A stretch of 64,000 nucleotides of DNA from a virus (taxonomy: Duplodnaviria > Caudoviricetes): positions 1,497-65,496 of the IMG/VR virus record IMGVR_UViG_3300025652_000059, one strand, 5' to 3'. Within the stretch, counting starts at the first letter, position 1; the number at the start of each line of letters is the position of its first letter. Both the position numbers and the translations under genes were made by a program. This document shows, piece by piece, positions 56,968 to 63,761 of this stretch. The notes beneath the pieces were generated by a model. That model worked only from the letters and a program-made list of their open reading frames with translations, had not been told where the DNA came from and searched no databases.

Positions 56968-58866
56968 ATGTCGGAAGATCCCAAAAAAGTTATTACTATC
57001 GTAAACCCAGAGCAAGCTGGTCTAGATGAGGCTCGTTATGCACATCTACTCGATGTTTTAGACAGTATGCACTCCGCTTTAAAACGCCACACGCAACTAT
57101 TTCAAAGCGCAGAAGAAAGGGATAAAGAAGCGGCAGAAGACGCTAAACGAGCAAGATTAGCCGCATCTGTATCAGATGGTGATAATGATGGTGGGGAGGA
57201 TAGCAAGAAGGGAGCAGGAGCAGGAGCAGGAGCAGGAACTAGTCCCAAAAAGGATGATGGTGAAGGAGGCGGTGGTGTCAATGCTTTCTTTGCTGGCGGA
57301 GGACTCATGGGTGCAGTATCCGGTTTACTGGGTGGTACTATTGCAGGAATGTCTACTAAAAAGTTCTTTCTGGGTCTGGGGAAAAAAGTAATCGGATTAG
57401 GAATTGCGGCTGCTATAGCGCCTGCTGTTGGTAATTTTATTGAGGGTGCAGTAAATAGATCACTAGATAAAATGGGTGTCGATCCAGAAGTTGGTGATGA
57501 AATAGCAAGCGGAATTAACTTTGCCGCAGTAAATGCTATAATAGCGGCCACTATAAACAAGAGATGGGCTTTGCCTGCATTTTTAGCATCTTTAGCATAT
57601 AAGGTTGGTGCTAAATTAGACGAACTCGATGGTGAGGACGATGGAGCAATTGCGGGAGTAGAAGTTTCTGATGAGACACTAAAAGCTGTCGGAGGTATTC
57701 TTGGAGTTGGCTTTGGGTTTTACCTACAAAATAAACTCATATCATTAGCGAAAGCGGCGTCAGCCAAGCTAAAGGGTGTGCCTGTCGATGAGGTTATAGA
57801 GGAAGTAACTGATACTACTGTTGGCGTTGGACAGAACGATACTAATAATAATAAGAATAAAGATAATCGGGACGAAAGATCAAAAAATAACGACAAGCTT
57901 AATAGGCGTCAAACAGATCTCATTAATAAGGGAATTAGACTGCCTGGATTTTTGGCTTTCAATAGTAATGGGCAGGCAATAAACGAGTTGGGACAGATTG
58001 TATCTAACGATGATATCAAAGCGGCACTAGCTAAACTGGATAAAATGAATGTCACTAAGTATGCAGGATTATTGAAGTTTGCGGGTGCGGCCGCATCTGT
58101 AGGATTTTCTATGGTTGATGTCTATGACGCAATAGCTAACGGCGAAAGTGAAGATGTAATTATCAAAGAACTGTCTGGTGCATTAGGTGGTATTGCGGGT
58201 GGTTTTGGTGGAGCAAAACTTGGCGCACTTGCAGGAATGGTGGGTGGGCCGATAGGATCATTTCTAGGCGCACTAGTAATGGGTGGATTTGGCGCACTAG
58301 CAGGGGAAGATCTCGCAGAAATGATCGCAGAATTTGCAGTTACTGGAAAAAGCGAAGGCCTTGATAAGCTAGGAAATACGTTAGCTGTAGCCGGATCAGG
58401 ATTTACGACCGGTCAGGGATTCATGGGAAATCCAGCTATCATGGGAAGAGCAATGCACCAGAAATCACTGAAAGACGATTTCGAATCTTTCAAGTCAGGG
58501 GATATGTCGTTTGAGCAGTTCAATAAGCGTCATCCGGCAGATAAGAAGGCTTTGCAGAGGGCTCAAGCCATTATAGACGCTCAAAGAGCAGAGCGTGAAC
58601 AGCGCATACGGAATACAGTCCCAGTTGGTTTAGGAGTACTTAGACCAGAAAATTTAAAAGTTGTCCCTATGGAAGATAAAGTCGATGCAATGGGTCAATT
58701 CTCTATGTTCCCTCCATCTGGCGGGCAGGGGTCTATGCAAGCAGTGCAAAACTTTAGTCCAGTTCAAAATACAGTTAATACTGTCGGTGGTAACGAGAAT
58801 AATCAATTTACTATAATTCAAGGTGGTACATCTTCACTGGACAATAGCATTCCAGTAAGTCAATAA
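56968..58866 (+). CDS. gp29: tape measure / baseplate hub protein gp29-like
   Basis: 632 aa, helical with Gly/Ala-rich hydrophobic segments (GGAKLGALAGMVGGPIG) and an N/T-rich C-terminus; follows gp26-gp51. Confidence 0.75.
   Translation: MSEDPKKVITIVNPEQAGLDEARYAHLLDVLDSMHSALKRHTQLFQSAEERDKEAAEDAKRARLAASVSDGDNDGGEDSKKGAGAGAGAGTSPKKDDGEGGGGVNAFFAGGGLMGAVSGLLGGTIAGMSTKKFFLGLGKKVIGLGIAAAIAPAVGNFIEGAVNRSLDKMGVDPEVGDEIASGINFAAVNAIIAATINKRWALPAFLASLAYKVGAKLDELDGEDDGAIAGVEVSDETLKAVGGILGVGFGFYLQNKLISLAKAASAKLKGVPVDEVIEEVTDTTVGVGQNDTNNNKNKDNRDERSKNNDKLNRRQTDLINKGIRLPGFLAFNSNGQAINELGQIVSNDDIKAALAKLDKMNVTKYAGLLKFAGAAASVGFSMVDVYDAIANGESEDVIIKELSGALGGIAGGFGGAKLGALAGMVGGPIGSFLGALVMGGFGALAGEDLAEMIAEFAVTGKSEGLDKLGNTLAVAGSGFTTGQGFMGNPAIMGRAMHQKSLKDDFESFKSGDMSFEQFNKRHPADKKALQRAQAIIDAQRAEREQRIRNTVPVGLGVLRPENLKVVPMEDKVDAMGQFSMFPPSGGQGSMQAVQNFSPVQNTVNTVGGNENNQFTIIQGGTSSLDNSIPVSQ
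57211..57237 (+). repeat. (GGAGCA)4.5 in-frame microsatellite encoding GAGAGAGAG
   Basis: ggagcaggagcaggagcaggagcagga. Confidence 0.9.
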
Positions 58867-59151: not shown

Positions 59152-60087
59152 CTAGTCTTCAGCTAGACTTTTGAAAAAGTCAAGAGAGTCGTCCGTTGAC
59201 TCTGAAGAGGTTGAGGATGAGGATGGGGCTTCAGCCTGAGCAACAGCAGGTGCCGCTCGCTCTTTAAAGTTTGGCTGAAACGCCATCCCCGCATTGCTGT
59301 CCTCGGCGGTCGCTACGGGTGCGTGTGAACCACCATCAAGTTGTAGAACTTTGTGCAGTTTTGCTTTAAGTTCTCCATAAGACTTGAAGTTTTTAGGATC
59401 AACAATTTCGGCTAGGGAGTGCTGTTTGTTCCATACTGCTTCCATATCTTCATCAGACAGTGCTTCACCATCAGTGTTAGCAATTGGAGCAGGAGTAGCA
59501 AACTCAGATTTGTCGTAGTTGCGATAGCCTTCTACTTGACGAATCTTTAGTTTGAAGTCAGCGCCTTCCCAGAAATCGAATGGATTGATTGGATCTTCAT
59601 CAGCGAACTGAGGATTCATAGCATCGTTCAGTTTGTCGAAGATTTTCTTACCAAATTTATACAAATAAACTTGACCTTCACGAGAAGGATTTGATGGATC
59701 AGATACGACCATTACATTAGCTACATAGCTAAGACGGCGTTTCTGTTTACGAGCAATCTCTTTGTCTTCATCATGACCAGAGTTCCACAACTGAGAGTTA
59801 TACTCAGATACTGGATCGTCTTGACTTAGAGTTGTTAGAGACTTCTCGATGTACCAACCACCTGGCCCTTGAAAGCCATGATCCCAATAGCGAACGAAAG
59901 GCATATCTTCGTTCTCAGAAGCGGGTAGGAATCGAAGTACAGCGTAGCCATTGCCAGCTTTATCGACTTCTGGTTTCCAGTAGTTGTCGTCACCTTTGGA
60001 CATTTTTTGATTTGACATTGATTGTAGTTGAGAGTTCAACTTATCAAAAGAGTTCGTACGGTTTTTCTTTAATGATGCAAAAGACAT
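59152..60087 (-). CDS. gp32: single-stranded DNA-binding protein gp32
   Basis: DKAGNGYAVLRFLP, HGFQGPGGWYIE, YKFGKKIFDK, NYDKSEF and acidic tail DDSLDFFKSLAED. Confidence 0.97.
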   Translation of the reverse strand: MSFASLKKNRTNSFDKLNSQLQSMSNQKMSKGDDNYWKPEVDKAGNGYAVLRFLPASENEDMPFVRYWDHGFQGPGGWYIEKSLTTLSQDDPVSEYNSQLWNSGHDEDKEIARKQKRRLSYVANVMVVSDPSNPSREGQVYLYKFGKKIFDKLNDAMNPQFADEDPINPFDFWEGADFKLKIRQVEGYRNYDKSEFATPAPIANTDGEALSDEDMEAVWNKQHSLAEIVDPKNFKSYGELKAKLHKVLQLDGGSHAPVATAEDSNAGMAFQPNFKERAAPAVAQAEAPSSSSTSSESTDDSLDFFKSLAED

Positions 60088-60104
60088 ATTATGTTCTCCA
60101 TATT

Positions 60105-60148
60105 TGCGTTGTATTTACGATTTTAGTACTTCTCGTATGCGTTGTATT
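60105..60148 (-). repeat. 11-nt direct repeat AATACAACGCA x2 in the gene 32 leader
   Basis: Copies at 60138-60148 and 60105-60115. Confidence 0.8.
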
Positions 60149-60174
60149 ATACTAGGTGTTGCTGTATTTGTCAA
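60146..60174 (-). promoter_or_regulatory. consensus sigma70 (early) promoter for gene 32
   Basis: TTGACA-17 nt-TATAAT overlapping the end of gene 59. Confidence 0.88.
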
Positions 60175-60751
60175 GAACTATTTTCTTCATTTTCACTTTA
60201 TCATAATCTAAAAAAGGTTTATAGTTGTTAACAGTCTTATTTATATCAGGGAAAACTATGGTGTCACGAATAGTCTTCTCCCAATACTTAAAGCATCCAG
60301 TGAGTTCATCAATGATAATCAATGTCTCAATGCATACCCTTCTTCTGTTGAACAGAGATAGGAGTTTTGGATATTCTCCATCTTCGACAACAATGTTGGC
60401 ATTGAAGTCATCGTCTAACTCATCTAAATCATTCTTAAATGTGTAAGTCAATGACTGTTGCCTTTTTGACCACTCAGTATAGACTTCATCTGCTTCATGA
60501 CTGTCTATTAAGTTGCCAATCCAGAGATCAGGCTTCTTTAATATATTCGCTAGAATATAATCTTTAGCATCTTTCCTCTTAGATAACTTATAGAAAAAGA
60601 ACTTATCTTTTCTATTTTCAAATCCATCGACAGTAAGTCTCATCTTACCGCCATACTTCACAAAGTCATAAGTTGATGTGAAATGCTTCTTGATTGCCAT
60701 GTAGTAACTATAGAGTTCGAACGCATCTCTAGTAGAATACATTGAACTCAT
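60152..60751 (-). CDS. gp59: helicase loader gp59
   Basis: YMAIKKHFTS.YDFVKYGGK, FENRKDKFFFYKLS and YKPFL. Confidence 0.95.
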   Translation of the reverse strand: MSSMYSTRDAFELYSYYMAIKKHFTSTYDFVKYGGKMRLTVDGFENRKDKFFFYKLSKRKDAKDYILANILKKPDLWIGNLIDSHEADEVYTEWSKRQQSLTYTFKNDLDELDDDFNANIVVEDGEYPKLLSLFNRRRVCIETLIIIDELTGCFKYWEKTIRDTIVFPDINKTVNNYKPFLDYDKVKMKKIVLDKYSNT

Positions 60752-60999
60752 ACAGGTAATCTCACAAGTTTCTCGACCATGTTTAACTCTTCAGCTTCTT
60801 TGTAAATGTTTGCTTTTAGAAGAGGCGACTTACGAATAATCTCACCAACAACTTCGATTTCAAGACCATTCTTCTCAGCGTACTCGACTACTGCGTCAAT
60901 ATAGGGCACACCTGCGTCAATGTGTCTCTTTATATCTAGCATTATACGCTCAGAGTTTAGTCTGTTAAGTAATTTAAGGTCACCCTTCTTATCACCCAT
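60748..60999 (-). CDS. gp33: late transcription coactivator gp33
   Basis: YIDAVVEYAEKNGLEIE...LKANIYKEAEELN...RLPV. Confidence 0.92.
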   Translation of the reverse strand: MGDKKGDLKLLNRLNSERIMLDIKRHIDAGVPYIDAVVEYAEKNGLEIEVVGEIIRKSPLLKANIYKEAEELNMVEKLVRLPV

Positions 61000-61201
61000 T
61001 TAGAACCTTTATCCCTAACGCCCAGTTCTCTGCGGCATCTTCAGCCCACTGTAGAGACTTACGCTCATGTAGTTCAGTTGACACTAGTGTGCCACGAGGA
61101 TCGTAGTACTCAATTCTCCAACCATTATCAGCTTCAAAGATAAGTGCTTGAGCGTTGCCCGCTTCTTCAACCTTGATTCTTCTACTAACTAGTTTAGACA
61201 T
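60992..61201 (-). CDS. hypothetical protein
   Basis: 69 aa ending KSLQWAEDAAENWALG, coupled between dsbA and gene 33. Confidence 0.75.
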   Translation of the reverse strand: MSKLVSRRIKVEEAGNAQALIFEADNGWRIEYYDPRGTLVSTELHERKSLQWAEDAAENWALGIKVLNG

Positions 61202-61205
61202 AATA

Positions 61206-61475
61206 CTATCCTATAGTTTCGAGTAATGCTTCGATGTCTTCGATCTCAGAGATCAACTCAGACACATTTTCTTTATGATAAATTTTAGCCATTTTAGCTA
61301 GGTACTTTTTAGGGATATCAACATCATCAGAGAGTGAGACGATAGCTTCTTTAATGAAGTCTCGTTCAGCATCGATGCGAGTATAAGATGCACTGATCTC
61401 ATTCATAGCGCCTTTGATGCGTTGCTTATCAGAGTCTGACGATGGTAGAATAATAGAGTTTGTTGGTGTTGTCAT
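61206..61475 (-). CDS. dsbA: double-stranded DNA-binding protein DsbA
   Basis: EISASYTRIDAERDFIKE...IPKKYLAKMAKIYHK; T4 gene order dsbA-33-59-32. Confidence 0.88.
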   Translation of the reverse strand: MTTPTNSIILPSSDSDKQRIKGAMNEISASYTRIDAERDFIKEAIVSLSDDVDIPKKYLAKMAKIYHKENVSELISEIEDIEALLETIG

Positions 61476-61499
61476 AGTATAAGTTCCATATCAATTAAA

Positions 61500-61667
61500 A
61501 GAAGGGGCCCGTTTTGAGTAACACTTATCGTTGGAATCTACCAACTGTGTCGTCTCTTCGCAATCCATGCTAACTAGCATCCATGCCTGTGGTGGGCCAA
61601 GCCACACTCCTCTTTAGTTATTGACATTTTCGAATTTCCTTTTTCGGGTATGTCGTACCTCTCTTCT
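61500..61667 (-). ncRNA. unassigned structured RNA candidate (~170 nt)
   Basis: Intergenic. Closing stem AGAAG/CUUCU, several internal hairpins and a possible GGCCC/GGGCC pseudoknot. Confidence 0.55.
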
Positions 61668-61699
61668 ACACATACTGTTATCATACTTTGTATATGAGA

Positions 61700-61993
61700 A
61701 GTCGTGTGGACAACTTCTGTTGCTAGGCGTGTCCAGACCCCGGTAGATTATGCCGCTAGGGCAAAATCACCATGTGCAAAATTATTATCGTTTGCGATTA
61801 TTTTATTAGCTTCTTTAGTCGGGAACTCCCAACCCTTACAGTCTTTAGCATTGACTGATTCTCCACATAACCTCAACCGTCTGTCGAATCCAGAGCGTCC
61901 CCATCATAAAAACACTAAACAATGCTCTTATGGTGGAGACGAGGGGAGTCGAACCCCTGTCCAAACAAATCTACTTTATGCTTCACTGAATAC
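61700..61993 (-). ncRNA. ssrA: tmRNA, circularly permuted two-piece (alphaproteobacterial-type) gene
   Basis: Acceptor piece ...GGACAGGGGTTCGACTCCCCTCGTCTCCACCA ends at 61931. A 28-nt intervening hairpin follows. The coding piece starts GGGGACGCTCTGGATTCGAC at 61902. Acceptor stem has G3.U70; tag ORF present. Outer boundaries are approximate. Confidence 0.95.
61748..61795 (-). other. tmRNA proteolysis tag reading frame (A)ANDNNFAHGDFALAA*
   Basis: ATAATC-GCA AAC GAT AAT AAT TTT GCA CAT GGT GAT TTT GCC CTA GCG GCA TAA. Confidence 0.93.
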
Positions 61994-62213
61994 TTTTATT
62001 GACTTTTTTGTACAGAACTTCGTGCTGTTCTCGTAACCAATCGTCATACACGCAATCACTAAATTCATCTTCAGTCATTGCGGTTAAACTGTCAATATAC
62101 ATATTAAACGAAAGAAATGATCCACTCATGCCAGTTGCTATATCCATAGGCTTTGCAATTTGTTCCAGTGCATCAATTCTACTTTTAAGTTCACTCAATA
62201 CTTCACTTCTCAT
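61983..62213 (-). CDS. hypothetical protein
   Basis: 76-aa ORF whose stop codon overlaps the predicted 5' end of the tmRNA acceptor piece. Confidence 0.65.
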   Translation of the reverse strand: MRSEVLSELKSRIDALEQIAKPMDIATGMSGSFLSFNMYIDSLTAMTEDEFSDCVYDDWLREQHEVLYKKVNKSIQ

Positions 62214-62234
62214 AATATACTCTCATCGAATGTC

Positions 62235-62534
62235 TTATTTATACTCTTGCTCTTTTCTCAACTTCAGCAACCATGAGTCGCCTCTACGTTCAGCATCATA
62301 AAAGACTGCCGCTGTAAATGTAGCCATGAACAACAATACAAAGTGAATAACAAGGCTTATGCCCATATAGATTACGCTACCAATGTAGATTCCAAACGTG
62401 ATTGACCACATCCAAGCTAGAACAGTCATTATCCACATTCGTGATAATGGATCTGGGATATGTCTTAGCGGGTTCTTGCTATGGTCAAACAGCCAATTAT
62501 AAAAGTCATAGAACTTTAAAAACATCAACTTCAT
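62235..62534 (-). CDS. membrane protein (NPLRHIPD family of marine phages/bacteria)
   Basis: NPLRHIPD...VLAWMW motif, two TM helices and GGAG SD. Confidence 0.75.
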   Translation of the reverse strand: MKLMFLKFYDFYNWLFDHSKNPLRHIPDPLSRMWIMTVLAWMWSITFGIYIGSVIYMGISLVIHFVLLFMATFTAAVFYDAERRGDSWLLKLRKEQEYK

Positions 62535-62570
62535 AATATTTCTCCATTATATATCTTGCTTATGTGTGTA

Positions 62571-62599
62571 ATTATAGCACGGTGTAGCCGATTTGTCAA
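62571..62599 (-). promoter_or_regulatory. consensus sigma70 (early) promoter upstream of the membrane-protein/tmRNA unit
   Basis: TTGACA-17 nt-TATAAT with extended -10 TG. Confidence 0.9.
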
Positions 62600-62602
62600 G
62601 TA

Positions 62603-62707
62603 TTATGTGACTAAATTATATCCCATATAGAATAGGGCTAACCAAAGTAATCCCTTGATTAGAAAGAATGAAAATGTGAATAGTAGCAGTTGCGTTGTTC
62701 TCTTCAT
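62603..62707 (-). CDS. small hydrophobic protein (34 aa)
   Basis: MKRTTQLLLFTFSFFLIKGLLWLALFYMGYNLVT; ATGA overlap with the glutaredoxin-like gene. Confidence 0.6.
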   Translation of the reverse strand: MKRTTQLLLFTFSFFLIKGLLWLALFYMGYNLVT

Positions 62708-63001: not shown

Positions 63002-63682
63002 TTATTTAATTTCTGGAAACAAACACTTCTGTATAAAAACATCAACATCATCTTCATCAAGGCCCAGTGACTTCATTACACGAGGTGTATGAGGATTCTG
63101 TTTCTGATAGAAAGCATAGCGATTTTGCGCTACTATTCCCTCACTATCTTCACTGTTACACCAATAGTCACCTACGTTATTCAGATAGTACAGCAAAGAT
63201 TGCTCAACTGCATCAGATATCTGGTTTATCTCGTCTTGCTCTTTGACCATCCCTGCCGCTATCATTCCATCACTGAAGATCGCTTGCGCCCATTCAGGAA
63301 GCTCACGCTCTCTTTTCCATTCCAGCTTTGATGAAATATTCCCAAACGTCTTGATCATTTCGTGATCAGGATTCGTTGTCGCTGATAGATCACAGAATGC
63401 TCCTGTCATCTTGTTGGGACCCGCTATTACATCGAATCCAAAGATAGGAGCATCACTGTCTGTGTGAGGGAATACGCAAACGTGCATCATCCAGAGCTTA
63501 CTAGACTCTCTCATATCGACTACATCAATATGGGCTCTTCTATAGTTCTTACTCGTCCAGACTCTGTTGACCCAACCCGGTTGATTGAATCGCTCCATAC
63601 CCTCTTCTTGGATCTCTGTTCCAGTGAACTTAAATAACTCAATGATATCGTTCTGGATATCAATTAATCTGCTCCATATCAT
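63002..63682 (-). CDS. pcyX: ferredoxin-dependent bilin reductase, PcyX type
   Basis: MIWSRL, GMERFN..GWVNRVW...RRAHIDVVD...LWMMH, PIFGFDVIAG, RELPEWAQAIFS and QKQNPHTPRVM. Start at MIW is more likely than the ORF-track start. Confidence 0.9.
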   Translation of the reverse strand: MIWSRLIDIQNDIIELFKFTGTEIQEEGMERFNQPGWVNRVWTSKNYRRAHIDVVDMRESSKLWMMHVCVFPHTDSDAPIFGFDVIAGPNKMTGAFCDLSATTNPDHEMIKTFGNISSKLEWKRERELPEWAQAIFSDGMIAAGMVKEQDEINQISDAVEQSLLYYLNNVGDYWCNSEDSEGIVAQNRYAFYQKQNPHTPRVMKSLGLDEDDVDVFIQKCLFPEIK

Positions 63683-63683
63683 A

Positions 63684-63761
63684 CTATTCATCATCGCCCT
63701 CGCGTAACACGAACCAGATCCACATGAGCACTAGCGCAACTATAACAACTTGTATGTCCAT
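63684..63761 (-). CDS. small single-TM peptide (25 aa)
   Basis: MDIQVVIVALVLMWIWFVLREGDDE; TGATG-coupled upstream and stops 1 nt before pcyX. Confidence 0.55.
   Translation of the reverse strand: MDIQVVIVALVLMWIWFVLREGDDE

What the first reader, a model, noticed from the sequence alone, without database searches (positions are those of the whole stretch)
61700..61993. Phage-encoded circularly permuted (two-piece) tmRNA of alphaproteobacterial type
Seen: the tRNA-like 3' half (T-arm GGGGUUCGACUCCCC, CGUCUCC-ACCA) is transcribed before the 5' half (GGGGACG-CUCUGGAUUCGAC). They are joined by a 28-nt spacer that folds as CAUAAGAGCAUU/AGUGUUUUUAUG. The acceptor stem has the Ala identity pair G3.U70, A73 and an encoded CCA. 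Helix 2 (UUAUGU/GCAUAA, GAAU/AUUC) and a PK1-like element are present. The tag ANDNNFAHGDFALAA ends in the ClpXP degron LAA and is followed by the CCUAGCAACAGAA motif of alpha tmRNAs. Established: permuted ssrA genes occur in Alphaproteobacteria and in some cyanobacteria and betaproteobacteria; phage tmRNAs are uncommon and standard annotation often misses permuted ones. Inference: an early-expressed (promoter 62571) ribosome-rescue RNA that uses host SmpB and RNase P, possibly countering RNA-cleaving defences. It points to an alphaproteobacterial host.
Basis: partly seen in the sequence, partly recalled or inferred. Interest (0 to 1): 0.85.

Follow-up and report, generated by a model that had tools for sequence, protein, structure and literature searches.

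The report
Two-piece tmRNA in T4-like phage
A T4-like phage from aquatic metagenomes carries a genuine back-to-front (two-piece) gene for tmRNA, the RNA that frees stalled ribosomes; such phage genes are already published, and this one does not reliably point to an alphaproteobacterial host.

Summary
ARAGORN and Rfam both call a circularly permuted tmRNA on the minus strand at about 62028-61695, with the tag ANDNNFAHGDFALAA.

The fold is under selection in phage relatives. 97.6% of cells are paired against 81.2% in shuffles, 17 pairs show compensatory changes, and G3:U70 is invariant in 15 of 15.

The interpretation needs three corrections:
- **Not novel as a kind.** Two-piece tmRNAs of aquatic T4-like phages are published (Buchholz 2022, PMC9004378). 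In Melnitz (per the paper) and Mosig the gene sits upstream of gp33, as it does here.
- **"Alpha type" does not hold.** Rfam subtyping gives beta 86.2 bits, alpha 57.8 and cyano 42.5. The T-loop and D-loop motifs are absent from 26 of 26 alphaproteobacterial genes. In the tree the gene lies in an almost purely viral clade, apart from both alpha and beta genes. Only the 3' loop GCAACAGAA and the ANDN start of the tag look alpha-like.
- **"Early-expressed" is half right.** A perfect sigma-70 site lies about 570 nt upstream. Eight of ten contigs of this lineage have the T4 late motif TATAAATA directly before the gene. Here a 76-codon ORF was inserted between the two.

The host remains open. Verdict: an ordinary new member of a known kind.

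The parts
62571..62599 (-). Sigma-70-type promoter-like site, TTGACA-17-TATAAT with TG, upstream of ORF99, ORF76 and the tmRNA
   Evidence: 12 of 12 matches. The region as a whole is not enriched in such sites (4 found, 7.1 expected).
62235..62534 (-). ORF99, a small protein of unknown function. It is conserved upstream of the tmRNA in relatives.
   Evidence: tblastn gives 98% identity in L008 and 81% in L013. No Pfam or PHROG family.
62236..62243 (-). T4-type late-promoter motif TATAAATA, 23 nt before ORF76. In relatives the same motif lies directly before the tmRNA.
61983..62213 (-). ORF76, a lineage-specific insertion between the late motif and the tmRNA. Its last codons and stop overlap the first helix strand of the tmRNA.
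   Evidence: It is found only in the window and L030. Alignment. No family.
61931..61993 (-). Acceptor piece: 5' strands of helix 2, T-arm 61957-61943, acceptor 3' strand 61941-61935, A73, encoded CCA 61933-61931
61903..61930 (-). Intervening segment of 28 nt. It forms a 12-bp hairpin that continues the acceptor stem and is presumed to be removed during maturation.
   Evidence: In relatives the segment is 11-37 nt or longer, and its closing stem changes in step (read by eye).
61695..61902 (-). Coding piece: acceptor 5' strand 61902-61896, UGGAUUCGAC 61892-61883, helix 2 3' strands 61872-61857, hairpin 61857-61839, tag frame 61795-61748, 3' hairpin with loop 61727-61715
61476..61706 (-). Conserved non-coding stretch between the tmRNA and dsbA. 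It includes a 12-bp hairpin (61701-61663). Whether it belongs to the tmRNA transcript is unknown.
   Evidence: No Rfam family. Contigs of three RNA libraries cover 61460-61795.
59152..61475 (-). Downstream genes on the same strand: DsbA-like regulator 61206-61475, ORF69 60992-61201, gp33 late-transcription coactivator 60748-60999, gp59 helicase loader 60152-60751, gp32 ssDNA-binding protein 59152-60087

Best explanation
This is a functional phage-encoded two-piece tmRNA (ssrA) gene of an uncultured aquatic T4-like myovirus. It occupies the slot upstream of dsbA-gp33-gp59-gp32, the same slot that holds ssrA in Pelagibacter phage Mosig and, per the paper, in OM43 phage Melnitz.

**Shown.**
- The gene order is permuted, and the tRNA-like domain has G3:U70, A73 and an encoded CCA.
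- The stems covary, the tag frame is conserved, and the flanking promoter motifs are present.

**Inferred from established tmRNA biology.**
- The gene is transcribed as one precursor from the TATAAATA late motif at 62243-62236, together with ORF76. Read-through from the sigma-70 site at 62599-62571 probably adds to this.
- The spacer hairpin presents the junction as a pre-tRNA. Host RNase P cuts before G1 (61902), and 3' trimming stops at CCA (61931).
- The two pieces stay paired through the acceptor stem and helix 2. Host AlaRS charges the RNA, and host SmpB delivers it to stalled ribosomes.
- Translation resumes at GCA (61795) and adds ANDNNFAHGDFALAA, which marks the product for host proteases.
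- The likely benefit is keeping ribosomes free while host and phage mRNAs are being degraded and late proteins are being made.

**Evolution.** The gene belongs to an almost purely viral tmRNA clade. It is not a recent copy of an alphaproteobacterial or betaproteobacterial host gene.
For: **Gene identity.**
- ARAGORN makes a permuted call with a tag.
- RF04321 scores 106.2 bits against a cut-off of 47, and RF01850 scores 86.2 against 84.

**Structure under selection, 15 distinct phage relatives.**
- 33 pairs are predicted and 97.6% of cells are paired, against 81.2% in shuffles (0 of 500 reach it) and at most 54.5% when partners are slid.
- 17 pairs change on both sides.
- The acceptor G:U is invariant in 15 of 15.

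**Tag.** Tags in the 15 aligned relatives all begin with AND, and 14 of 15 end in LAA (one ends in IAA). The Ala and Asn codons vary synonymously.

**Precursor fold.** It shows the acceptor stem plus the spacer hairpin, z -3.03.

**Genomic slot.**
- A gp33, gp59 or gp32 homologue lies downstream on the same strand in 24 of 52 viral loci with a tmRNA, including Mosig and Melnitz.
- Mosig annotates SsrA directly before gp33. The Melnitz paper states the same.

**Promoters.**
- TATAAATA lies 47-48 nt before the T-arm in 8 of 10 contigs of the lineage, and in 4 further clade members.
- At least 6 of the 13 copies of the motif in the window lie 23-60 nt before gene starts, most of them structural genes.

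**Clade.** The careful tree gives a 29-row, almost purely viral clade, support 100/94.

**Phage type.** T4-like, from portal, sheath, TerL, baseplate, gp32, gp59 and gp33.
Against: - Nothing here shows processing, charging or tagging.
- The RNA-library contigs that match come from assemblies. They give no strand or ends, and may derive from DNA in the library.
- No SmpB was found, but the contig is only 36% complete.
- The beta_tmRNA score is only 2 bits over its cut-off. Four of 12 clade members tested pass no subtype model, so the family is divergent.
- A second stem for PK1 was not found.
- In this window the late motif is separated from the gene by ORF76. Transcription of the tmRNA therefore depends on read-through, and I found no terminator or promoter call between them.
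- TATAAATA is only mildly enriched: 13 found against 7.1 expected, and 4 of 100 shuffles reach 13.
Confidence: 0.88

Rival explanations
1. The gene is an alphaproteobacterial-type ssrA acquired from an alphaproteobacterial host, so it marks the phage as infecting Alphaproteobacteria (for example SAR11).
For: - It passes the alpha_tmRNA cut-off, 57.8 against 50.
- The 3' loop GCAACAGAA is present in 26 of 26 alphaproteobacterial genes, and the tag starts with ANDN as in 25 of 26 of them.
- An AU test does not reject the window's lineage joining alpha+Mosig+Melnitz (p 0.80).
- The bilin reductase next door is closest to that of Pelagibacter phage Mosig, at 48%.
- TerL is closest to Sinorhizobium phages, at 58.7%.
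Against: - The beta model scores higher, 86.2. True alpha genes score 203-317 on the alpha model.
- The alpha-type T-loop and D-loop are not present. The window has the canonical motifs that 0 of 26 alpha genes carry.
- The careful tree puts the window outside the alpha+Mosig+Melnitz clade, support 98/87.
- GCAACAGAA also occurs in Taylorella and Robbsia genes.
- Melnitz shows that an alpha-like ssrA can sit in a phage of a non-alpha host.
- gp32 is closest to cyanophages, at 52-62%.
- The Sinorhizobium phage tested (phiN3) has no permuted tmRNA.
Confidence: 0.2
2. The RNA acts mainly as a decoy that ties up host SmpB or ribosomes and so inhibits host trans-translation, as proposed for the TLD-only RNA of mycobacteriophage DS6A. 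On this view it is not a working tagging RNA.
For: - PMC4131195 reports that a TLD-only molecule strongly inhibits tmRNA.
- The tRNA-like domain is the most conserved part of this gene.
Against: - The tag frame is intact, starts with an Ala codon and ends in LAA.
- It is kept across the clade with synonymous changes and with tag lengths that differ. A pure decoy would not need this.
Confidence: 0.07
3. The gene is a non-functional remnant of a host ssrA, picked up by imprecise excision or left as an attachment-site fragment.
For: PMC9004378 notes that ssrA fragments occur in prophages, because ssrA is a common integration site.
Against: - The gene is complete in both halves.
- Its stems covary.
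- It is kept at the same slot in many contigs.
- A pattern scan of one genome per species found no bacterial counterpart of this clade apart from one 538-bp MAG contig.
Confidence: 0.03

Closest known systems
Two-piece ssrA of Methylophilales phage Melnitz and Pelagibacter phage Mosig (Buchholz et al. 2022, PMC9004378; passages read)
   Same: - It is a permuted tmRNA in an aquatic T4-like myovirus.
- It lies on the same strand and just upstream of the gp33 late-transcription coactivator, followed by gp59 and gp32.
- The tag ends in LAA.
- It presumably relies on host SmpB.
   Different: - Melnitz and Mosig subtype as alpha_tmRNA (106.7 and 67.6 bits) and group with alphaproteobacterial genes. 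The window subtypes as beta_tmRNA and lies in another, almost purely viral clade.
- Mosig lacks the canonical T-loop motif, and the window has it.
- Melnitz has a glutamine riboswitch after the gene (52.8 bits). The window has none, but has a different conserved stretch of about 230 nt.
- The paper places the Melnitz gene right after an early promoter. This lineage has the late motif TATAAATA.
Rfam RF01850 beta_tmRNA, the betaproteobacterial two-piece tmRNA (Sharkady and Williams 2004; cited, paper not held)
   Same: - It is the best-scoring subtype model, 86.2 bits.
- The T-loop is canonical, UGGNUUCGAC is present, and the spacer is short at 28 nt. Spacers are 18-40 nt in the bacterial set.
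- It has a 3' hairpin with a CCUNGNNAYNNAA-type loop.
   Different: - The score is only 2 bits above the cut-off. The seven bacterial genes of this set that were tested score 110-280.
- It is not inside the bacterial beta clade.
- The loop sequence and the start of the tag are of the alpha kind.
Rfam RF01849 alpha_tmRNA, Caulobacter-type two-piece tmRNA (Keiler et al. 2000; cited, not read)
   Same: - The gene order is permuted.
- The 3' loop is GCAACAGAA and the tag starts with ANDN.
- It passes the cut-off at 57.8 bits.
   Different: - The alpha genes sampled have a different T-loop and 5' D-loop region (0 of 26 carry the window's motifs).
- They score 203-317 bits on the alpha model.
One-piece tmRNAs of mycobacteriophages (Bxz1 group) and Bacillus phage G (Hudson et al. 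2014, PMC4131195; passages read)
   Same: It is a phage-encoded tmRNA.
   Different: Those are standard, unpermuted genes. The window scores only 34.7 bits on RF00023, against a cut-off of 47.

Membership tests
Permuted (two-piece) tmRNA, Rfam RF04321 | Covariance-model score at or above the curated cut-off | tested here: met
   106.2 bits against 47, full model 1-213
Permuted (two-piece) tmRNA, Rfam RF04321 | The 3' half of the tRNA-like domain (T-arm, acceptor 3' strand, CCA) is encoded upstream of the 5' half, with an intervening segment between them | tested here: met
   Order on the minus strand: 61957-61931, spacer 61930-61903, then 61902 onward
Permuted (two-piece) tmRNA, Rfam RF04321 | Alanine identity: G3:U70, with discriminator A73 and a CCA end | tested here: met
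   Read from the sequence. The G:U pair is invariant in 15 of 15 relatives.
Permuted (two-piece) tmRNA, Rfam RF04321 | Tag reading frame that resumes on an Ala codon and ends in a hydrophobic degron | tested here: met
   ANDNNFAHGDFALAA* at 61795-61748. Relatives keep the frame.
Permuted (two-piece) tmRNA, Rfam RF04321 | Maturation into two base-paired RNAs, charging with alanine, SmpB-dependent tagging | not testable with these tools
   The only RNA evidence is assembled contigs of RNA libraries, which carry no ends or strand.
Alphaproteobacterial subtype (RF01849) | Best-scoring subtype model, with a score in the range of true members | tested here: not met
   57.8 bits, below the beta model's 86.2. 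20 of 20 alphaproteobacterial genes score 203-317.
Alphaproteobacterial subtype (RF01849) | Alpha-type T-loop and 5' D-loop region, as seen in the sampled alpha genes | tested here: not met
   The window carries GGUUCGANUCC and UGGNUUCGAC. 0 of 26 alpha genes carry either.
Alphaproteobacterial subtype (RF01849) | 3' hairpin loop GGCAACAGAA-type motif and a tag beginning with ANDN | tested here: met
   GCAACAGAA is in 26 of 26 alpha genes and in the window. It is not exclusive: it also occurs in 2 of 41 beta-pattern bacterial genes and 8 of 45 viral genes.
Alphaproteobacterial subtype (RF01849) | Groups with alphaproteobacterial genes in a tree | tested here: inconclusive
   The careful tree has three clades, and the window lies outside alpha+Mosig+Melnitz (98/87). 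The tree is unrooted, and an AU test does not reject a join (p 0.80).
Betaproteobacterial subtype (RF01850) | Score at or above the cut-off and best among the subtype models | tested here: met
   86.2 against 84, so marginal. 8 of 12 clade members tested are also best on beta, 4 pass no subtype model, and none is best on alpha.
Betaproteobacterial subtype (RF01850) | Groups with betaproteobacterial genes in a tree | tested here: not met
   The bacterial beta genes form their own clade with 23 other viral genes (95/86). The window is not in it.
Melnitz-type ssrA with a 3' glutamine riboswitch | Glutamine riboswitch (RF01739) directly after the gene | tested here: not met
   Found in Melnitz at 52.8 bits. 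No match in the window at the gathering score or up to E 10 in 61400-62300.

The most novel reading that the evidence does not exclude
The window's ssrA represents a third, essentially phage-only lineage of permuted tmRNA. It mixes the ancestral-looking tRNA-like domain seen in beta genes with the alpha-like 3' loop and tag. It is inherited at a fixed slot (before gp33-gp59-gp32) in aquatic T4-like phages, and is switched on by a late promoter rather than an early one. It is followed by a conserved, unnamed RNA stretch of about 230 nt, which takes the place of Melnitz's glutamine riboswitch. Because tmRNAs of all three clades occupy this one phage slot, such phages could be long-term carriers, and possibly distributors, of permuted tmRNA genes among bacterial lineages.
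Probability: 0.25. Interest if true: 0.55.

Novelty: new member of a known kind. Interest (0 to 1): 0.3.

Why it matters
- It adds one more uncultured aquatic T4-like phage lineage (10 contigs in my set) to the phages known to carry their own ribosome-rescue RNA.
- It shows that ssrA subtype should not be used alone to guess a phage's host.
- The late-promoter placement, if real, would shift the proposed role from early host takeover to keeping ribosomes free during late protein synthesis.
- The conserved stretch after the gene is a cheap target for RNA structure work.
- None of this changes what is known about how tmRNA works.

Tried and rejected
- **Similar DNA in isolated phages.** A blastn of the gene against 50,697 phage records found only three matches of 34-53 nt, all to the T-arm region. 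No isolated phage there holds a close copy; records near the window may be hidden by the tool.
- **Cyanobacterial subtype.** The match is partial, 42.5 bits against a cut-off of 70. Rejected.
- **Standard one-piece tmRNA.** 34.7 bits against 47. Rejected.
- **Glutamine riboswitch or any other Rfam family near the gene.** None.
- **Phage SmpB.** None in the contig. The contig is a fragment.
- **RNA libraries.** Contigs of four RNA runs were laid on 61200-62650. None covered about 61800-61970, the tRNA-like core. The tool says a gap proves nothing, so I draw no conclusion about processing.
- **Quick tree.** It gave a poorly resolved backbone and a worse likelihood than a constrained tree. I replaced it with the careful search.
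- **Conserved stretch downstream.** The single-sequence fold is not unusual (z -1.56). The alignment fold has few compensatory changes (6 of 60 pairs, covariation term +0.42). A structured RNA is therefore not shown.
- **Second, permuted tmRNA copies in Gallionellaceae as prophage cargo.** The six ORFs tested next to one of them are housekeeping genes with no integrase. I dropped that reading.
- **Second pseudoknot stem for PK1.** I looked by eye and found none.
- **Sharkady and Williams 2004.** Not held. The published defining features of the beta lineage were not read.
- **Supplementary Table S1 of PMC9004378.** This list of phage two-piece tmRNAs could not be seen. It may already include relatives of this lineage.
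- **This scan's own notes.** There are none for this genome.

Full report
**What is there.** The finding's coordinates (61700-61993) hold a circularly permuted tmRNA gene on the minus strand.
- ARAGORN reports a permuted tmRNA at 61657-62023 with the tag ANDNNFAHGDFALAA*.
- Rfam's general model for permuted tmRNA, RF04321, matches over its whole length at 61992-61748. It scores 106.2 bits against a curated cut-off of 47 (E 1.1e-19). The betaproteobacterial subtype model RF01850 matches 62028-61695 at 86.2 bits against 84.
- A permissive scan of 61400-62300 adds no other family.
- Coordinates: T-arm 61957-61943, acceptor 3' strand 61941-61935, then A73 and CCA to 61931. The spacer is exactly 28 nt, 61930-61903. 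The acceptor 5' strand is 61902-61896. The tag frame is 61795-61748. The 3' hairpin loop CCUAGCAACAGAA is at 61727-61715.
- The two acceptor strands pair with G3:U70.
- The single-sequence fold gives the T-arm and an acceptor stem continued by a 12-bp spacer hairpin (z -3.03, 0 of 100 shuffles as stable).
I see one hairpin at that position (61857-61839) and no second stem.

**Is it more than chance, and is it kept by selection?** A junction pattern derived from the gene found 46 viral contigs. ARAGORN calls a permuted tmRNA in 44 of them; my own ARAGORN run finds one more at a contig end. I aligned fifteen distinct members of the window's clade.
- RNAalifold predicts 33 pairs: helix 2 in three parts, the T-stem, the 7-bp acceptor stem, a 2-bp stem inside the tag frame that never varies, and the 3' hairpin.
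- 97.6% of cells are paired, against 81.2% in shuffles (0 of 500 reach it) and at most 54.5% when partners are slid by 1-3 columns.
- 17 pairs change on both sides, and the G:U pair is invariant in 15 of 15.
- Tags all begin with AND, and 14 of 15 end in LAA. Synonymous codon changes are present.
This is a working RNA gene, not a relic.

**The phage.** The window is the last 64 kb of a 65,496-base IMG/VR virus record that CheckV rates 36% complete.
- It encodes T4-type portal, sheath, large terminase, neck and baseplate proteins, and gp2.
- Directly downstream of the tmRNA on the same strand lie a DsbA-like regulator, a 69-codon ORF, gp33, gp59 and gp32.
- The nearest cultured relatives differ by protein. 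gp32 is closest to Synechococcus myoviruses, at 52-62%. TerL is closest to Sinorhizobium phages phiN3 and phiM12, at 58.7%, then a Pseudoalteromonas phage, a Rhizobium phage, a cyanophage and Melnitz, at 54-48%. A PcyX-like bilin reductase (63002-63694) is closest to Pelagibacter phage Mosig, at 48%.
- The stretch, or half or more of its sampled words, is held by 14 DNA runs. Holders come from 16 studies labelled freshwater or marine metagenomes.
- The host is not determined.

**Already known.** Buchholz et al. [quoted passage not shown] They report 53 ARAGORN-called two-piece genes among 133 unique phage tmRNAs, 50 of them from marine or aquatic phages. They also find permuted tmRNAs in 17 of 47 Melnitz-like contigs.
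- Mosig's record annotates SsrA immediately before gp33, with gp59 and gp32 further on.
- In my set, a gp33, gp59 or gp32 homologue lies downstream on the same strand in 24 of 52 viral loci with a tmRNA. Many of the others are cut short, and thirteen with room have a different context.
- This scan's own index lists 167 notes on phage permuted tmRNAs in other genomes.
- The kind is therefore not new.

- The window scores 86.2 on beta, 57.8 on alpha (cut-off 50) and 42.5 on cyano (a partial match, cut-off 70).
- For calibration, 20 of 20 permuted genes from a sample of 151 Pseudomonadota genomes subtype as alpha at 203-317 bits. The seven bacterial genes of the beta-pattern set that I tested score 110-280 on beta. 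Mosig and Melnitz are best on alpha, at 67.6 and 106.7.
- Of 12 members of the window's clade tested, 8 are best on beta, 4 pass no subtype model, and none is best on alpha.
- The same junction pattern, scanned over one genome per species, hit 41 contigs. None has a title naming an alphaproteobacterium or a cyanobacterium. They are Betaproteobacteria, Stenotrophomonas, unclassified Pseudomonadota and one Wenzhouxiangellaceae contig.
- The reason is visible in the sequences. All 26 alphaproteobacterial genes, and Mosig, lack the canonical T-loop GGUUCGANUCC and the UGGNUUCGAC element that the window carries. The viral and beta sets have them by construction of the pattern; the alpha set was chosen independently of it.
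GCAACAGAA occurs in 26 of 26 alpha genes and in only 2 of 41 beta-pattern bacterial genes. The ANDN start of the tag is the alpha norm, in 25 of 26.
- A careful maximum-likelihood tree (120 rows, 364 columns) resolves three groups. The first is alpha genes plus Melnitz and Mosig (98/87). The second has 29 rows: 27 viral rows, the window and one 538-bp MAG contig (100/94). The third is the bacterial beta genes with 23 other viral genes (95/86).
- The window sits in a 10-contig lineage (99/97) inside the second group. L030 is identical to it over the gene.
- The tree is unrooted, and an AU test does not reject joining the window's lineage to the alpha group (p 0.80, against the quick tree).
- My reading is that the gene belongs to an essentially viral lineage with mixed traits. 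It is not a member of the alphaproteobacterial subtype as the sampled alpha genes define it, and its deeper origin is open.
- Melnitz carries an alpha-like ssrA yet infects OM43. The host inference would be weak even if the type were alpha.

**Expression.** It lies about 570 nt upstream, and ORF99 and ORF76 come between it and the gene.
In 8 of the 10 contigs of the lineage, the T4 late-promoter motif TATAAATA starts 47-48 nt before the T-arm. That is a few bases before the first helix strand. Four further clade members have it at 48-49 nt.
- The two exceptions are the window and L030. There a 76-codon ORF (62213-61983, no known family) has been inserted. TATAAATA (62243-62236) now precedes the ORF, and the ORF's stop lies inside the first tmRNA helix strand.
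- The motif is only mildly enriched in the window: 13 found against 7.1 expected, and 4 of 100 shuffles reach 13. However, at least 6 of the 13 copies lie 23-60 nt before gene starts, most of them structural genes. That is what late promoters of T4-like phages look like; the consensus is named in the methods of PMC9004378.
- Other viral tmRNA lineages instead have a perfect sigma-70 site right at the gene's 5' edge (L022, L026, L027, L031).
- I therefore expect late transcription with possible early read-through. This is inference, not measurement.

**RNA evidence.** Contigs from three RNA libraries of three studies cover 61460-61795 at 99-100% identity. This span is the tag and 3' part of the coding piece plus the stretch up to dsbA. 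A fourth library covers 61971-62380. These are assemblies, so they show no strand, ends or level, and DNA carry-over is possible.

**Mechanism.** See Best explanation. Everything after transcription is inferred from the established biology of two-piece tmRNA: RNase P cleavage before G1, trimming to CCA, loss of the spacer, pairing of the two pieces, alanylation through G3:U70, SmpB delivery, and tagging for proteolysis. No SmpB gene is present in the contig (the contig is a fragment), so host SmpB is the likely partner.

**Verdict.** This is a new member of a known kind and of modest interest. The points worth keeping are the almost purely viral clade with mixed subtype traits, the late-promoter placement, the small ORF inserted at the gene's 5' edge, and the conserved unnamed stretch after the gene.

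Noticed in passing
window 61476-61706 (minus strand): A non-coding stretch of about 230 nt directly after the tmRNA is nearly invariant in the lineage's contigs. In L008 it stays with the tmRNA, where about 700 nt are inserted before dsbA. It starts with a 12-bp hairpin whose loop comes in two unrelated versions. It has no Rfam family. It sits where Melnitz has a glutamine riboswitch. Covariation is too sparse to call a structure.
   Followed up: partly
window 61983-62213 (minus strand): A 76-codon ORF of no known family is present only in the window and L030. It is inserted between the late motif TATAAATA and the tmRNA, with near-duplicate short sequences at both edges of the insert. Its stop codon lies inside the first helix strand of the tmRNA.
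   Followed up: partly
window 63002-63694 (minus strand): A ferredoxin-dependent bilin reductase (Pfam Fe_bilin_red, 69.6 bits) is 48% identical to the enzyme of Pelagibacter phage Mosig and only 23-34% identical to cyanophage PcyA. In Mosig it follows a heme oxygenase gene. This makes it a PcyX-like auxiliary gene in a phage of unknown host.
   Followed up: partly
L058 1-718, and genomes G001 and G003: A Gallionellaceae MAG has the 3' end of a standard tmRNA followed about 280 nt later by a beta-type permuted tmRNA. That genome and a Stenotrophomonas genome each hold a full standard tmRNA (226 and 191 bits) as well as a permuted one. The six neighbouring ORFs tested in L058 are housekeeping genes with no integrase, so this is not an obvious prophage.
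   Followed up: partly
L086 (538-bp contig of a Wenzhouxiangellaceae MAG): The only 'bacterial' member of the window's tmRNA clade is a 538-bp contig almost identical to viral contigs of the L009 group. It is probably viral DNA binned into the MAG.
   Followed up: no
L132-L136, L008, L026, intervening segments: Within the clade the spacer between CCA and G1 ranges from 11 nt to roughly 60-66 nt. Its closing stem next to the acceptor stem is kept by matching changes, read by eye in the alignment. None of these spacers holds an ORF.
   Followed up: partly
window 56968-58866 (plus strand): A 632-residue ORF between the baseplate-hub genes and gp32 has no PHROG or Pfam family and no tblastn match in 50,697 phage records. 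It is 99.8% identical over the part held in L030.
   Followed up: no
L022, L026, L027, L031: In other viral tmRNA lineages a perfect TTGACA-N16-18-TATAAT site lies right at the 5' edge of the permuted tmRNA. Phage lineages therefore seem to differ in whether the gene has an early-type or a late-type promoter.
   Followed up: partly
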